Made by a program: the position numbers and the translations under genes. This document shows, piece after piece, positions 1,048 to 4,984 of a stretch of DNA of 64,000 nucleotides (its first letter is position 1; the number at the start of each line of letters is the position of its first letter). The notes beneath the pieces are model-generated. The model was not told the DNA's origin, searched no databases, and saw only the letters and a program-made list of their open reading frames with translations. Source of the DNA: Escherichia coli (lineage in GTDB: Bacteria > Bacillota_I > Bacilli_A > RFN20 > CAG-826); the NCBI GenBank assembly GCA_963630675.1, contig CAVGNR010000009.1, positions 886 to 64,885 of the forward strand, read 5' to 3'.

Positions 1048-1278
1048 ATGGCTTTCAGAAAAATGAGATCCAGACGTAAAGTTTGCTATTTCACTAAGAA
1101 TCATATCAAACATATTGATTATAAAAACGTTGAACTTCTTCAAAGATTCATCACACCTGATGGAAAAATCATGCCAAGAAGCAGCACTGGTACTTGTGCT
1201 AAATATCAACGTCAATTAGCGAAAGCAATCAAAAACGCCCGTTATATGGGATTACTCCCAGAAGTTGGCGCTAACTAA
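1048..1278 (+). CDS. rpsR: 30S ribosomal protein S18
   Basis: 76 aa; CYFTKN...[19 protein letters not shown]...[17 protein letters not shown] matches S18 family motifs. Confidence 0.9.
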
Positions 1279-1299
1279 GCGAAACTATTACGTTATTAG

Positions 1300-1326
1300 C
1301 CTCACCTAAGCGTGGGGCTTTTTTAT
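1300..1326 (+). terminator. rho-independent terminator after rpsR; copy 1 of a duplicated hairpin
   Basis: CCTCAC-CTAAGC-GTGGGG hairpin followed by a T-run. A near-identical copy lies at 2849-2872. Confidence 0.6.
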
Positions 1327-1427
1327 TATCTACACACATGTTTTAAAAGAAATTTGAATGTAGTAAAAATGCTAACATATTATCGAAAAAATGCATAAAG
1401 AATGAAAATATGCTAAAATATTAGCAT

Positions 1428-1718
1428 ATGGAAGAACAAGCATTACAATTTGTAACATACGATGAAAAACAACTAGAAATAGCCAAACGTTTTGTTGCTA
1501 TTAGAAAAAGCAAAAAAGTGTCTCAACAAAGGTTGTCTATTCTTTCTGGTGTTTCTTACGCTTCTATTAGAAGATTTGAAAAAACTGGTAATATCTCTTT
1601 ATCTTCCTTAGTAAAACTCGCGTTAGCTTTGCAACTTTATGATGATTTAGATAATTTGTTTGTCAGCCACTCAAAATACAAAACAATCGAGGAAATAATC
1701 AATGATCAGAAAGATTGA
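1428..1718 (+). CDS. hipB: HipB-like XRE-family HTH antitoxin
   Basis: 96 aa with an HTH (QQRLSILSGVSYASIRRFEKTGNISLSSLVKLALAL). Its stop overlaps the hipA-like start by 17 nt. Confidence 0.6.
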   Translation: MEEQALQFVTYDEKQLEIAKRFVAIRKSKKVSQQRLSILSGVSYASIRRFEKTGNISLSSLVKLALALQLYDDLDNLFVSHSKYKTIEEIINDQKD

Positions 1719-2796
1719 TGTTTTTGCTAGTAAGGAAAAAGTTGGCACACTTGCATTGACAAAAGAAAATGTAGTGGCTTTTCAATACACCGATGAATGG
1801 ATTGCGAATGGTTTTTCCATCAATCCTTTCAAATTACCATTATCCAAACAATTGTTTTTTTCTACTTCACCCTATTTTAAAGGCTTGTTTGGTGTCTTTG
1901 CGGATTCTTTGCCTGATAGTTATGGTGAGCTACTTTTAGAACGTTACTTAAAAAGTAAAAACATAGATATGAATAAGCTAACTTGCTTAGATAGACTTGC
2001 TTATGTTGGTTCTTCTGGTATGGGAGCATTAGAATACGTTCCAGATTGGAGCATAGAAATTAATAAAAACAATTATGATTTCGATACAATTCAAAATGAA
2101 TGTAACGATTTATTAAGGGCAAAAGAGGTTCAAAATATTGATGAACTTTACGCTTTAGGCGGATCTAGTGGCGGTTCTAGGCCTAAATCATTAATCAAGT
2201 ATGAAGGCGAGGACTACATTGTTAAATTTTCATCTAAATATGATCCCAAAAACATTGCTGAACTTGAATATACATATATGTCTCTTGCTCAAGAGGCGGG
2301 GATCCATATACCAACGATTAAATTGGTATCATCAAAACTTGGCAACAAATATTTTCTTATTAAAAGGTTTGATAGGTGTGCTGATAAAAAAATACACATG
2401 ATAAGTGTAGCCGCATTATTGGAGGCTGATTTTCGGGCTCCTTCGCTTGATTATAATGAACTATTGAAACTCACAAGAGTGTTAACAAAAAATGATGATG
2501 ATCTTTTAGAAATGTTTAGAAGAATGGTTTTTAACGTTTTGGCCGATAATCAAGATGACCACATCAAAAATTTCTCTTTCATCTATGATGAGACAAAAAA
2601 AATGTATAGATTATCTCCAGCGTATGATATTACTCCCGGGAAAACATATTATGGCGAGCATACGACATCCGTTAATGGAAAAGGAAAGGGGATAACCGAT
2701 GAAGATATGCTTAAGGTTGCTACAAATAACAAAATAGATTTGGATACTGCAAAAAAGATTATTAGCAAGTGCAAAAAAGTCTTAAAGATTTCCTAA
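1702..2796 (+). CDS. hipA: HipA-like Ser/Thr kinase toxin, short form
   Basis: 364 aa. Carries the HipA catalytic-loop motif DNQDDHIKNFSF (D-x-H-x-K-N) and glycine-rich segments. Operonic with the upstream HTH gene. Confidence 0.75.
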   Translation: MIRKIDVFASKEKVGTLALTKENVVAFQYTDEWIANGFSINPFKLPLSKQLFFSTSPYFKGLFGVFADSLPDSYGELLLERYLKSKNIDMNKLTCLDRLAYVGSSGMGALEYVPDWSIEINKNNYDFDTIQNECNDLLRAKEVQNIDELYALGGSSGGSRPKSLIKYEGEDYIVKFSSKYDPKNIAELEYTYMSLAQEAGIHIPTIKLVSSKLGNKYFLIKRFDRCADKKIHMISVAALLEADFRAPSLDYNELLKLTRVLTKNDDDLLEMFRRMVFNVLADNQDDHIKNFSFIYDETKKMYRLSPAYDITPGKTYYGEHTTSVNGKGKGITDEDMLKVATNNKIDLDTAKKIISKCKKVLKIS

Positions 2797-2848
2797 CTAT
2801 AGCGAAAATGCCGTTAAACCTGTTTGTTCTAAGAAACGAGATTATTAG

Positions 2849-2872
2849 CCTCACCTAAGCGTGAGGTTTTTC
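2849..2872 (+). terminator. copy 2 of the duplicated hairpin terminator
   Basis: CCTCAC-CTAAGC-GTGAGG hairpin plus T-run. The shared context ttattagcctcacctaagcgtg is also found at 1293-1317. Confidence 0.6.
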
Positions 2873-2932
2873 TAATATATGTTTCGTCTCTTTCCCCTTT
2901 TAACCCATAAGGGGTTAAATTATAATTTAACT

Positions 2933-4984
2933 ATGAACGCATCCATTAAGAAATTTCGTAACATTACATTCATCTTTGCTCTAATAGAGCTAATCTTTAT
3001 TGGAACCCTCACTTTTTTCTGGGTTTATAACACTTTCGGCATCCGTGATATCAAATATATCGAAGAGTATATATTTTTAGGTTTTGTCGTTCTTTGCTTA
3101 GCTGACATCCTTTTCACTTGGTTTGCTTTAGCACGTCTTTCGAGAAAAAGACAAAGTAATGATATCGAAGTGGCTTCTCTTATTGGTAACGACATTCAAA
3201 TGGCTTATAACTTCAATCAAATTGGTTTGCTAGCCATTGATGAAAATGGTCTCGTGTTATGGACCAATACTTTGTTTAACGAAAGACAATTGGATCTTGT
3301 TGATACGGATATTTTCCAATCTTTTCCTGCCTTGAAGGAATTGGTCAAACTCAAAAGCGATAAGACCGTCCATCTTGAAATGAAAGGCAAATCATATGAA
3401 GTTCGTTTCTTAAGCGAACCAAGATTGTTTGTCTTTAAAGATGTGACCGAATATGACAACGTTGTCAATTATTCTAAGGAACAAGCCATTGCTTTAGGTG
3501 TTGTCATGATTGATAACTTTAATGATGTTGCTTCAGATACGGATGAAGTAGCGGACGCGGTTATGGATGTTCGCGCTATTGTTCGTGATTATTTCCGCCA
3601 ATATAAAGTCCTTCTTACCCAAGTGAAACAAGACCGTTATTTCGCGGTTTGTAATTTTAATGCCCTTGATCAAATGGAGAAAGATGGCTTCTCTGTGATG
3701 GATAAAGTTCGTGAAAAACAGGATAAAGAAGATACACCATTAACCTTATCTATTGGTTTTGCTCATGACTTCCCTGATGTGGGCAAGCTATACGAAATGA
3801 CGGAAGAAGCGATCGATACCGCTTTAGCCCGTGGTGGTGACCAAGCTGTTATTTCACAATATGGCAAGGAGCTTCGTTTCTTTGGTGGCAAATCAGCTGC
3901 TATTGAGAATACCTCTAAAGTGAAAGTCCGTTCCATGGTTGGAGGGCTTGCTAAATTAATTAAAGATTCCAGCGCTGTCTTCATTATGGGACATACCGAA
4001 ATGGATATGGACGCTTTAGGAAGTTGCTTGGGCATTAAGGCCATTTGTGATTGGTGTAAAAAACCAGCCAAGATTGTCTATGCACCAAAACGTACAGAAA
4101 AGAAGGCTAGACTTGCCTTCACAAGCGCCTTCTCAAAAGATGTTTTGGATCAGTTGACCTTAACTCCAGAACAAGCCGCAGCTCAAATTAAAGAAACTTC
4201 GCTTGTTGTTGTCGTAGATGTCTCTGTTCCAAAAAACGTCATGGGCCCAAAGATTCTTGATTTAGCAAGAAAAGTCGTTGTCATTGACCATCATCGTCGT
4301 GGCGATTCCTTCATCGAAAGACCATCTTTGTCCTATATTGAGCCATCCGCCTCTAGCGCTTGCGAATTGATCACGGAAATGATTCGTTATGCGGCTGCGA
4401 ACCCTCGTATAGATTTGAAGCCATCTTATGCCACAATCATGTTGTCCGGCATTTTCATGGATTCCCAATATTTCAAGAGCAAATCCGTTGGTATGAGAAC
4501 CTTCGAAGCGGCCGAAATCTTGAAAGAATACGGCGCTGAAAACACTCTTGCGGATGAATATCTCAAAGACGATTACGAAGAATTCGCTTTGACGAATAAG
4601 ATACTCGGGACAATGAAGACGCCATCTTATGGTGTTCTCTATTGTGTTTCAGATGATAGCGATATCGTTGAAAGAAGTGCGCTTGCTAAGGTGGCGAATT
4701 CCCTTCTTTCTCTTAGAGATGTGCACGCTTCCTTCGTTATCGGAAGGACGGCAGATAAGCAAATTAGCATATCCGCAAGAAGCGATGGAACCATATCTGT
4801 TCAGCTTCTTATGGAACAATTAGGGGGTGGAGGTCACCTTACGATGGCGGCAACCTTATTCCCAAATCCAAAAGTTCCAAACATCACTCATGTTGATGAG
4901 GCGGAAAAGAAACTTATAGAATGTTTGAATGATTACTTAGACGCTTCAAAAGTAAACGTCACTGCGGGAGGAAACAATGTATGA
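2933..4984 (+). CDS. gdpP: GdpP-type cyclic-di-AMP phosphodiesterase (2TM-PAS-degenerate GGDEF-DHH-DHHA1)
   Basis: Two N-terminal TM helices, a DHH motif (VIDHHRRGD) and a DHHA1 GGGGH motif. Conserved position upstream of rplI-dnaB. Start placed at ATG 2933 (MNASIKK...); the ORF-track frame opens at 2879. Confidence 0.8.
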   Translation: MNASIKKFRNITFIFALIELIFIGTLTFFWVYNTFGIRDIKYIEEYIFLGFVVLCLADILFTWFALARLSRKRQSNDIEVASLIGNDIQMAYNFNQIGLLAIDENGLVLWTNTLFNERQLDLVDTDIFQSFPALKELVKLKSDKTVHLEMKGKSYEVRFLSEPRLFVFKDVTEYDNVVNYSKEQAIALGVVMIDNFNDVASDTDEVADAVMDVRAIVRDYFRQYKVLLTQVKQDRYFAVCNFNALDQMEKDGFSVMDKVREKQDKEDTPLTLSIGFAHDFPDVGKLYEMTEEAIDTALARGGDQAVISQYGKELRFFGGKSAAIENTSKVKVRSMVGGLAKLIKDSSAVFIMGHTEMDMDALGSCLGIKAICDWCKKPAKIVYAPKRTEKKARLAFTSAFSKDVLDQLTLTPEQAAAQIKETSLVVVVDVSVPKNVMGPKILDLARKVVVIDHHRRGDSFIERPSLSYIEPSASSACELITEMIRYAAANPRIDLKPSYATIMLSGIFMDSQYFKSKSVGMRTFEAAEILKEYGAENTLADEYLKDDYEEFALTNKILGTMKTPSYGVLYCVSDDSDIVERSALAKVANSLLSLRDVHASFVIGRTADKQISISARSDGTISVQLLMEQLGGGGHLTMAATLFPNPKVPNITHVDEAEKKLIECLNDYLDASKVNVTAGGNNV

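What the first reader, a model, noticed from the sequence alone, without database searches (positions are those of the whole stretch)
1281..2880. hipBA module inserted into the conserved rpsR-gdpP junction, bracketed by a duplicated terminator hairpin
In Firmicutes rpsR is normally followed directly by gdpP-rplI-dnaB. Here a 1.5-kb HTH-HipA pair sits between them, and both of its borders carry the same sequence ttattagcctcacctaagcgtg(g/a)gg (1293-1317 and 2843-2866). Further similarity exists just upstream of each copy (cgaaactattacg versus cgaaaatgccgtt). That looks like a target-site or terminator duplication generated when the toxin-antitoxin cassette was inserted into an essential operon.
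Basis: seen in the sequence. Interest (0 to 1): 0.6.

Follow-up and report, generated by a model that had tools for sequence, protein, structure and literature searches.

The report
hipBA cassette flanked by duplicated terminator
A 1.5-kb toxin-antitoxin gene pair was inserted just behind the transcription stop signal of ribosomal gene rpsR, copying that signal to both sides, and related cassettes in distant gut bacteria still carry a fragment of rpsR, a rare clue to how such cassettes move.

Summary
A 37-nt direct repeat (1293-1329 and 2842-2878, 33/37 identical) brackets a 1,512-nt insert that holds only an Xre-type HTH gene and a HipA-family kinase gene. It is the longest direct repeat in the 64-kb window, and each copy is an intrinsic-terminator hairpin.

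The sister species (88% nucleotide identity in gdpP; L011, L037, L038) and six more distant relatives have an empty site. There rpsR is followed by a single hairpin and then gdpP. All 11 alleles sampled from the window's own species carry the insert.

First, the cassette lies between two transcription units, the rpsR terminator and gdpP's own conserved promoter, not inside an operon. Second, the weak similarity upstream of the repeats is probably the vestige of a longer duplication.

In at least four other cassette lineages, hipA is followed by a pseudo-copy of about the last 20 codons of rpsR. Their hosts are too distant for vertical descent (RpsR 67% identical, HipA about 80%).

The closest known pattern is "insertion with long target duplication", described for restriction-modification genes. 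The integration mechanism is inferred, not shown. Three of the 11 alleles have lost hipA but keep the antitoxin gene.

The parts
1048..1278 (+). rpsR (ribosomal protein S18), last gene of rpsF-ssb-rpsR. Its last 8 nt plus the next 6 nt (1271-1284) recur at the hipA stop codon.
   Evidence: Pfam Ribosomal_S18, E = 8.6e-28; ORF list; local alignment statistics.
1293..1329 (+). Left copy of the 37-nt direct repeat, which is the native intrinsic terminator of rpsR (stem-loop 1298-1319, then a T-run).
   Evidence: Collinear with the single hairpin of the empty site in L011/L037/L038.
1330..2841 (+). Inserted segment (1,512 nt) that is absent from the sister species. G+C is 29-34% against 38-44% in the flanks.
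   Evidence: Empty-site alignments; composition profile.
1363..1430 (+). Conserved hipBA control region. Box 1 (about 1365-1382) and box 2 (near-palindrome TATGCTAAAATATTAGCATA, 1409-1428) are probable HipB operators. An extended -10 TGCTAAAAT lies at 1411-1419, 8 nt before the hipB ATG, so the mRNA may be leaderless.
   Evidence: Repeat D9 and inverted repeat I22. Both boxes are conserved in 10 cassettes from unrelated contexts, while sequence further upstream is not. Function is inferred.
1428..1718 (+). hipB-like antitoxin and repressor gene (96 aa, Xre-type HTH).
   Evidence: Pfam HTH_3, 24.3 bits against a cut-off of 23; weak couple_hipB and MqsA matches; dN/dS 0.04 among 11 alleles.
1702..2796 (+). 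hipA-like kinase toxin gene (364 aa). It overlaps hipB by 17 nt.
   Evidence: Pfam Couple_hipA 5e-18 and HipA_C 8.9e-50. Aligned with E. coli HipA, D285/H287/K289/N290 and D309 match D309/H311/K313/N314 and D332. Intact in 8 of 8 full-length alleles, dN/dS 0.10.
2793..2807 (+). Probable vestige of a duplicated rpsR tail (CTAACTATAGCGAAA against rpsR-stop CTAACTAAGCGAAA). It contains the hipA stop codon.
   Evidence: 4 of 2000 shuffles. At the same position, homologous cassettes L030, L047, L050 and L059 carry a pseudo-copy of roughly the last 20 codons of rpsR that overlaps the hipA stop codon.
2808..2841 (+). 34-nt spacer of unknown origin between the rpsR-tail vestige and the right repeat copy.
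   Evidence: No counterpart in the empty sites or in other cassettes.
2842..2878 (+). Right copy of the 37-nt repeat (stem-loop 2847-2868, then a T-run). It now serves as the hipBA terminator, and its 3' side continues into native sequence.
   Evidence: alignments with the empty site.
2899..2935 (+). gdpP's own promoter region. It has the conserved palindrome TTTAACCCATAAGGGGTTAAA (2899-2919), TATAAT at 2921-2926 and the ATG at 2933, so the mRNA is probably leaderless.
   Evidence: Conserved in L001-L011 and L024 whether or not hipBA is present; flagged as a hairpin. Promoter function is inferred.

Best explanation
A horizontally acquired hipBA-type type II toxin-antitoxin cassette (own promoter and operators, an Xre antitoxin gene and a HipA kinase toxin gene; 1,512 nt) integrated immediately after the T-run of the rpsR terminator and upstream of gdpP's own promoter. 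The integration left the target duplicated: one terminator copy still ends the rpsF-ssb-rpsR transcript and the other ends hipBA, so neither neighbouring transcription unit is disturbed. The 37-nt repeat is probably what remains of a longer duplication that began inside the rpsR tail. In this cassette lineage hipA is directly followed by a pseudo-3' end of rpsR, and the window keeps only its last few bases, which supply the hipA stop codon. The most likely route is recombination between a target copy carried by the incoming cassette and the resident rpsR tail or terminator. This could be a Campbell-type single crossover of a circular form, or the still unexplained process called 'insertion with long target duplication'. 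It needs no recombinase encoded in the cassette. Shown: the insertion, the empty site, the duplication, intact genes under purifying selection, and the rpsR fragment linked to the cassette in other hosts. Inferred: the recombination route, kinase toxicity (by analogy with HipA family members that phosphorylate aminoacyl-tRNA synthetases), and HipB autoregulation at the two palindromic boxes.
For: Empty site with a single hairpin in the sister species and in six further relatives. Left copy collinear with the target on its 5' side and right copy on its 3' side. Left-right identity of 33/37 exceeds left-target 28/37 and right-target 30/37 (counted). The repeat is unique in 64 kb and is the longest direct repeat there. 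The insert has lower G+C than its flanks. The insert holds only the two genes, and no inverted repeats sit at its ends. HipA homologs of 77-82% identity occur in hosts whose RpsR, SSB, GdpP, RplI and DnaB are only 36-67% identical, so the cassette was transferred horizontally. In L050 the cassette again sits behind rpsR, flanked by a 220-nt direct repeat (86.6% identical). That repeat runs from about 60 nt inside rpsR to the T-run of the terminator, exactly where the cassette promoter begins. The rpsR pseudo-tail overlaps the hipA stop codon at the same junction in L030, L047, L050 and L059, and L059 is not at an rpsR locus. The window shows a 14/15 match to its own rpsR stop region at that position. 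The published class has matching criteria: repeat longer than 30 bp, insert shorter than 20 kb, no mobility genes, an empty site, and repeats that often span the neighbouring gene's stop codon (PMC2853133).
Against: No integration intermediate or circular form was observed. The rpsR fragments are only 77-81% identical to the resident rpsR tails. They are therefore old fossils and are now too diverged to drive RecA recombination. In the window the left 3' UTR is of native type and the right copy has an unexplained 34-nt spacer, which a simple single-crossover model does not predict. Many family members sit at unrelated sites without an rpsR tail or flanking repeats (L032, L054, L056, L058, L060, L061), so the site preference is not absolute. 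The same A/G polymorphism segregates in both copies, so part of their similarity may come from gene conversion or from selection on the hairpin. Only 64 kb of this genome could be checked for further copies.
Confidence: 0.7

Rival explanations
1. Site-specific integration. The two copies are attL and attR of an element that uses the rpsR tail or terminator as its attachment site. The 1.5-kb cassette would then be either a decayed remnant of a larger integrative element or a non-autonomous element moved by an integrase acting in trans.
For: The direct repeats align with a single-copy site in the empty genome. The cassette recurs behind rpsR in a distant host and carries a displaced gene 3' end, as with elements that integrate into the 3' ends of tRNA or ribosomal-protein genes. 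The junction accumulates accessory genes such as Fic, GNAT and DUF4177.
Against: There is no integrase in the insert, and none is called in the genes flanking it in any of the loci examined. The hairpin sequence is absent from viral contigs. Repeat length varies widely between hosts, 37 nt against 220 nt, with mismatches spread throughout rather than a sharply bounded identical core. The rest of the window's genes were not screened for recombinases.
Confidence: 0.12
2. hipBA behind rpsR is ancestral, and the 'empty sites' are precise deletions produced by recombination between the two repeat copies.
For: Direct repeats allow such deletions. The cassette also sits behind rpsR in distant hosts. 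Part of the cassette has been lost within the species, through the hipA deletion alleles.
Against: At least nine sampled relatives at 70-96% GdpP identity lack it, and only the window's species has it. The empty-site hairpin has loop TTAACT and 5' flank TCTTT, unlike both window copies (CTAAGC and TTATT), so it is not a recent recombinant of them. HipA at about 80% identity against RpsR at 67% excludes vertical descent across the hosts. The extra DNA in L002 and L024 is unrelated to the cassette.
Confidence: 0.05
3. The terminator was duplicated after the insertion, or the cassette brought a terminator of its own that became similar by gene conversion. In that case the repeat would not record the integration event.
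For: Both copies are under the same structural constraint, and the same A/G polymorphism segregates in both, which shows exchange or parallel change.
Against: This needs an extra event. The right copy runs seamlessly into native downstream sequence and the left copy into native upstream sequence. L050 shows the same architecture with a different, much longer sequence.
Confidence: 0.06
4. The cassette is a transposon or a miniature inverted-repeat element, and the repeat is its target-site duplication. An example would be an IS30-type element such as IS1630 of Mycoplasma, which makes duplications of 19-26 bp.
For: Long target duplications by a Mollicute insertion sequence are on record (cited in PMC2853133). 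My own recollection, not checked here, is that IS1630 targets inverted repeats.
Against: There is no transposase and no terminal inverted repeats at 1330 or 2841. The duplication of 37 nt, and about 220 nt in L050, is longer than reported for IS1630.
Confidence: 0.03

Closest known systems
Insertion with long target duplication (Nobusato et al. 2000; Furuta, Abe & Kobayashi 2010, PMC2853133)
   Same: A small gene unit with no mobility gene. It is flanked by unique direct repeats longer than 30 bp that align with a single-copy sequence in a related genome's empty site. Repeat length varies, the repeats start at or near the stop codon of the upstream gene, and the insert's G+C differs from the flanks.
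   Different: The class was described for restriction-modification genes, and its authors suggested that it depends on DNA breakage by the cargo. Here the cargo is a protein kinase toxin-antitoxin pair. The duplicated target is an intrinsic terminator, and the cassette lineage keeps a fossil of the target gene when it is found in other hosts.
E. coli hipBA and related HipA-family toxin-antitoxin systems (HipBA, HipBST, YjjJ)
   Same: An Xre-HTH gene lies upstream of, and overlaps, a gene with HipA N-terminal and C-terminal kinase domains. The catalytic D-x-H-x-K-N and Mg-binding D motifs are conserved, and the promoter holds palindromes.
   Different: The protein is shorter (364 against 440 aa) and only distantly related (E = 2e-8 to E. 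coli HipA, 1e-13 to Legionella HipT). It falls below the NCBIfam cut-offs. The operator sequence differs (TGCTAA-N4-TTAGCA rather than the TATCC-N8-GGATA I recall for E. coli). Target and toxicity are untested.
[quoted passage not shown] 2009, as summarised in PMC7167474 and PMC3184786)
   Same: A small toxin-antitoxin pair sits in a variable intergenic site between conserved genes. It is present or absent among relatives, and the toxin decays in part of the population.
   Different: A different toxin family. Here the junctions show a clear target duplication, whereas the review states that the way toxin-antitoxin systems integrate is 'unelucidated'. I could not read Mine et al. itself.
Integrative elements that target the 3' end of tRNA or ribosomal-protein genes and carry a replacement 3' end
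   Same: Direct repeats that include the 3' end of a conserved gene flank the insert, and a displaced pseudo-3' end lies distal to the cargo.
   Different: There is no integrase. The insert is only 1.5 kb. The repeat has no sharply defined identical core and its length differs sixfold between hosts.

Membership tests
HipBA type II toxin-antitoxin system | Toxin with a HipA C-terminal kinase domain and intact catalytic residues | tested here: met
   Pfam HipA_C, 169.7 bits against a cut-off of 30.5. D285, H287, K289, N290 and D309 align with E. coli HipA D309, H311, K313, N314 and D332.
HipBA type II toxin-antitoxin system | HipA N-terminal (Couple_hipA) domain in the same protein, as in HipA rather than the split HipS/HipT form | tested here: met
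   Pfam Couple_hipA, 65.9 bits against a cut-off of 22.5, residues 6-112.
HipBA type II toxin-antitoxin system | Xre-type HTH antitoxin gene immediately upstream, in one operon | tested here: met
   HTH_3, 24.3 bits against a cut-off of 23. There is a 17-nt overlap with hipA. The pair is conserved together in all 13 contexts sampled.
HipBA type II toxin-antitoxin system | Palindromic operators in the promoter that are bound by HipB | tested here: inconclusive
   Two conserved near-palindromic boxes overlap the putative -10 and lie upstream of the -35. Binding was not tested.
HipBA type II toxin-antitoxin system | Toxin arrests growth and the antitoxin neutralises it | not testable with these tools
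   Indirect evidence only. There is purifying selection on both genes (dN/dS 0.10 and 0.04), and the alleles that lost a gene lost hipA while keeping hipB.
Insertion with long target duplication (criteria of PMC2853133) | A related genome has an empty site whose single sequence aligns with both repeats | tested here: met
   L011, L037 and L038; left-target 28/37 and right-target 30/37.
Insertion with long target duplication (criteria of PMC2853133) | Direct repeat longer than 30 bp | tested here: met
   37 nt, 33/37 identical. The corresponding repeat in L050 is 220 nt and 86.6% identical.
Insertion with long target duplication (criteria of PMC2853133) | Insert shorter than 20 kb with no other mobility gene | tested here: met
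   A 1,512-nt insert with two genes only.
Insertion with long target duplication (criteria of PMC2853133) | Repeat not multi-copy in the genome | tested here: inconclusive
   Two copies in 64 kb, and none elsewhere in the 46 loci held. The whole genome is not available.
Site-specific integrative element (attL/attR) | A cognate integrase in or next to the element | tested here: not met
   No such gene in the insert or in the genes called within 4 kb of it. A recombinase elsewhere in the genome that acts in trans cannot be excluded.
Insertion sequence or miniature inverted-repeat element | Terminal inverted repeats at the insert ends, and a short target-site duplication | tested here: not met
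   No inverted repeat pairs the two ends. The duplication is 37 nt.

The most novel reading that the evidence does not exclude
The hipBA cassette is a minimal self-homing element with no recombinase of its own. It carries a captured copy of the rpsR tail and terminator as a built-in homology arm. After transfer, host recombination re-inserts it behind rpsR. Each integration regenerates flanking direct repeats, and these in turn allow precise excision as a circle. This would be a general answer to how small toxin-antitoxin cassettes move, and it would show that 'insertion with long target duplication' does not need a DNA-cutting cargo.
Probability: 0.3. Interest if true: 0.7.

Novelty: new variant of a known kind. 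Interest (0 to 1): 0.5.

Why it matters
Small chromosomal toxin-antitoxin pairs are everywhere, yet a 2020 review states that how they move between hosts and integrate remains unelucidated (PMC7167474). This locus offers unusually legible junctions. It has a clean empty site, a unique 37-nt duplication of an intrinsic terminator, and relatives in which the same cassette drags along a fragment of the target gene rpsR.

If the pattern holds, it extends "insertion with long target duplication" from restriction-modification genes to a kinase toxin. That argues the process is driven by the host or by homology rather than by cargo-made DNA breaks.

The locus also shows how an insertion next to essential genes can be harmless, because the duplicated terminator insulates both neighbours. 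Finally, it captures a population in which the toxin gene is being lost while the antitoxin gene is kept.

Tried and rejected
- **Genome-wide terminator or repeat family:** rejected. There are two copies in 64 kb and none elsewhere in the loci held.
- **Phage attachment site:** the hairpin is absent from viral contigs.
- **Transposon or miniature inverted-repeat element:** no terminal inverted repeats and no transposase.
- **Hairpin-ended IS200/IS605-type or integron attC-type cassette:** rejected. The left hairpin is the native rpsR terminator, which keeps its position and structure with different sequences in relatives that lack the insert.
- **Extension of the repeat downstream of 1329/2878:** not above chance.
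- **Flanking repeats around homologous cassettes at other sites:** none in L032, L054, L056, L058, L060 or L061.
- **Extra 190-215 nt in L002 and L024 as cassette remnants:** no similarity.
- **RmuC-like insert in L009:** no duplicated terminator.
- **Plasmid and phage collections:** only distant HipA relatives, at most 50% identical.
- **Rfam search of the multi-copy element next to the cassette in L047 and L050:** no family matched.
- **Mine et al. 2009:** could not be read.
- **IS1630 paper:** a full-text search with that term listed no paper containing it among the eight shown.
- **Not attempted:** structure prediction, because the sequence evidence for the kinase fold was already sufficient.
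Full report
**1. What is in the sequence**

The window starts with rpsF (260-546), ssb (586-1029) and rpsR (1048-1278). Next come a 96-aa Xre-type HTH gene (1428-1718) and a 364-aa gene (1702-2796) that overlaps it by 17 nt. The 364-aa product carries the HipA N-terminal and C-terminal domains (E = 5e-18 and 9e-50). After these come gdpP (2933-4984), rplI and dnaB.

TTATTAGCCTCACCTAAGCGTG(G/A)GG lies at 1293-1317 and 2842-2866, and without gaps it extends to 37 nt (1293-1329 and 2842-2878, 33/37 identical).
- With three mismatches allowed it occurs only twice in 64 kb, against 0.00 expected.
- It is the longest direct repeat in the window.
- It was found nowhere else in the loci fetched up to that point.

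Each copy is an 8-bp stem with a 6-nt loop followed by a T-run. Both pass the terminator scan and fold at -12.4 and -11.9 kcal/mol.

**2. The empty-site test**

A scan of one genome per species with GdpP returned 29 loci, and I placed the neighbouring genes on them.
- L001 (GdpP 99% identical) has the same insert and both repeats.
- L011 (RpsR 100% and GdpP 96% identical in protein; 88% in gdpP, rplI and dnaB DNA, so another species) has rpsR, one hairpin and gdpP within about 105 nt.
- L003-L007 and L010 (70-85% GdpP identity) have the same layout. Their hairpins have different sequences at the same position, which marks the hairpin as the native rpsR terminator.

A look-up of contigs that encode exactly this RpsR protein gave two more empty sites of the L011 type (L037, L038) and eight more occupied sites.

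On its 5' side the left copy continues the empty-site sequence (GCGAAAyTATTACGT...). On its 3' side the right copy does so (...TTTTCTwATATAyGTTTCGTyTCTTTCCCC). The two copies are closer to each other (33/37) than to the target (28/37 and 30/37, my count).

The empty-site hairpin has loop TTAACT, whereas both window copies have CTAAGC. The empty site is therefore not a recent excision product of this allele.

The insert (1330-2841, 1,512 nt) has 29-34% G+C against 38-44% in the flanks.

**3. Not in an operon**

All close relatives, occupied or empty, keep a terminator after rpsR. They also keep a conserved block before gdpP: the palindrome TTTAACCCATAAGGGGTTAAA, then TATAAT, then 6 nt, then the ATG (window 2899-2935).

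The cassette therefore sits between two transcription units. The duplication gives each unit a terminator, and gdpP keeps its own promoter.

The junction is not inviolate. L009 has an RmuC-like gene there, L018 and L026 have other genes, and L002 and L024 have about 190-215 nt of unrelated DNA.

**4. The genes**

HipA aligns with E. coli HipA and with Legionella HipT (E = 2e-8 and 1e-13). The catalytic motif and the Mg-binding aspartate are conserved: D285, H287, K289 and N290 match D309, H311, K313 and N314, and D309 matches D332.

The HTH protein is a generic Xre type. It has only weak matches to HipB and MqsA models, below their cut-offs.

Ten cassettes from unrelated contexts share the roughly 65 nt before the hipB ATG and nothing further upstream. 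The shared elements, in order, are:
- a near-palindromic box (TTGCTAATATATTATCAAT);
- TTGAAA;
- a second near-palindrome that holds TGCTAAAAT, 8 nt before the ATG.

I read these as two HipB operators around an extended -10 promoter, possibly producing a leaderless mRNA. That reading is an inference.

Among 11 alleles of the window's species, hipB has dN/dS 0.04. Among the eight full-length hipA alleles, all are intact and dN/dS is 0.10. Silent-site divergence is similar to that of gdpP. The pair has therefore been resident and under selection for as long as the species has diversified.

**5. Decay in the population**

Three of the 11 alleles (L041, L043, L045) share one 976-nt deletion, equivalent to window 1758-2733. 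It leaves 19 codons of hipA followed by a stop codon, while hipB stays intact. L045 also has a 340-nt G+C-rich insertion in the hipBA promoter region.

**6. The weak upstream similarity and what explains it**

CTAACTAAGCGAAA spans the rpsR stop codon (1271-1284). CTAACTATAGCGAAA spans the hipA stop codon (2793-2807). This 14/15 match is reached by 4 of 2000 shuffles and by 1 of 1719 other windows.

HipA homologs of 75-83% identity are very numerous in gut metagenomes, and I looked up the contexts of eight of them.

In L050 the host is distant (RpsR 67% and SSB 51% identical to the window's), yet HipA is 80% and HipB 85% identical. The cassette must therefore have been transferred horizontally.
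- There it again follows rpsF-ssb-rpsR.
- It is flanked by a 220-nt direct repeat (86.6% identical).
- That repeat runs from AGAATTAGC, about 60 nt inside rpsR, through the 3' region to the T-run.
- It ends exactly where the cassette promoter begins, 91 nt before the hipB ATG; the corresponding distance in the window is 98 nt.

The copy behind hipA encodes ELADAIKNARLMALLPFVAD*, which is a pseudo-tail of RpsR. The hipA stop codon TAG is the TTAGC of that tail.

The same junction occurs in three other lineages:
- L047/48/49, where the cassette lies about 2 kb downstream of rpsR;
- L030;
- L059, in decayed form (VVTFKNARLMVLLL*VAD*), at a site unrelated to rpsR.

The tails are only 77-81% identical to the resident rpsR ends. 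They are old fossils that travel with the cassette.

On a HipA tree the window groups with these lineages. I therefore read the window's 15-nt match as the last remnant of such a tail, with most of it deleted. Alternatively it is a fresh duplication that again began at the rpsR stop codon. The 34-nt spacer at 2808-2841 is unexplained either way.

Other family members sit at unrelated sites without a tail or flanking repeats (L032, L054, L056, L058, L060, L061). L052 sits directly before gdpP but with Fic upstream.

**7. Mechanism**

The following is shown:
- an insertion, with duplication of the target, directly after a terminator;
- no mobility gene in the insert and no inverted repeats at its ends;
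- the same architecture with a different and much longer repeat in a distant host;
- a fragment of the target gene physically linked to the cassette.

This matches the published class "insertion with long target duplication". Its criteria are a repeat longer than 30 bp, an insert shorter than 20 kb, no mobility gene, an empty site, and repeats that often span a neighbouring stop codon (PMC2853133).

A Campbell-type crossover between a target copy on a circular cassette and the chromosome would give exactly this topology. It would also explain why the tail travels with the cassette. That step is inferred.

Several points count against a simple version of the model:
- the native-type left 3' UTR;
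- the 34-nt spacer in the right copy;
- the present divergence of the rpsR tails;
- the many cassettes found at other sites.

A trans-acting site-specific recombinase remains the main rival. No integrase is called in the flanking genes of the loci examined, and repeat length varies sixfold between hosts without a sharply bounded core.

**8. Novelty**

HipBA systems, toxin-antitoxin pairs in variable intergenic sites, and toxin decay are all known (PMC7167474, PMC3184786). Long target duplications are known for restriction-modification genes.

What I did not find described is a toxin-antitoxin cassette with this signature. Nor did I find one that keeps a fossil of its target gene across hosts. 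The authors of the restriction-modification work suggested that the process relies on DNA breakage by the cargo, and a kinase toxin does not fit that idea.

I rate this a new variant of a known kind, of moderate interest.

Noticed in passing
window 2899-2935 (also L001-L011, L024): gdpP is preceded by a conserved palindrome (TTTAACCCATAAGGGGTTAAA) and a TATAAT box only 6 nt before the ATG, with no Shine-Dalgarno sequence. This suggests a leaderless gdpP-rplI-dnaB mRNA with an operator-like element over the -35 region. Gene callers disagree on the start codon (701 aa against 683 aa).
   Followed up: partly
L041, L043, L045 (equivalent to window 1758-2733): Three of the 11 alleles of the species share the same 976-nt internal deletion of hipA and keep hipB intact. 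The toxin has been lost and the antitoxin retained. No microhomology is evident at the junction.
   Followed up: partly
L045 4318-4655: A 340-nt G+C-rich insertion lies in the hipBA promoter region. It has imperfect inverted ends (TGTGTCAGGACGA ... TCGTCATGGGACA), a possible AAGT duplication and an internal terminator-like hairpin. It found no match in the window or in any other locus held.
   Followed up: partly
L047 1146-1735 and 5250-5680; L050 2991-3135 and 4670-4868; L052/L053, L056, L059: A multi-copy element of about 150-200 nt (GTAGCAGGACAGTCGCGATTTGCCTCAGTTGGC ... AATGTAAATTAAGTCGTCC..GGCGGCTTTTTTT) ends in a terminator. It often continues into a G+C-rich stretch of about 250 nt. It is repeated several times around rpsR and hipBA in one group of hosts and has no Rfam match.
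   Followed up: partly
L041 4381-4671: The hipB allele of L041 is only 89.7% identical in DNA to the window's, whereas the other alleles are 98-100% identical. Most of the changes are silent, which suggests import of a diverged allele by recombination.
   Followed up: no
L039-L046 about 1650-2830; L047 5837-6808; L052 805-1776; L056 1342-2313: A Fic-domain gene recurs near the cassette or near the rpsF operon in several hosts, together with GNAT acetyltransferases. The rpsR-gdpP neighbourhood appears to collect accessory and toxin-like genes.
   Followed up: no
L002 5731-6001, L024 5709-6001: These two relatives have about 190-215 nt of extra non-coding DNA between the rpsR terminator and the gdpP promoter. 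The two extras are alike only at their ends and are unrelated to the hipBA cassette.
   Followed up: partly
L058 4154-7101: In one host the cassette sits between glnA and a WYL-domain gene that is followed by cas9.
   Followed up: no
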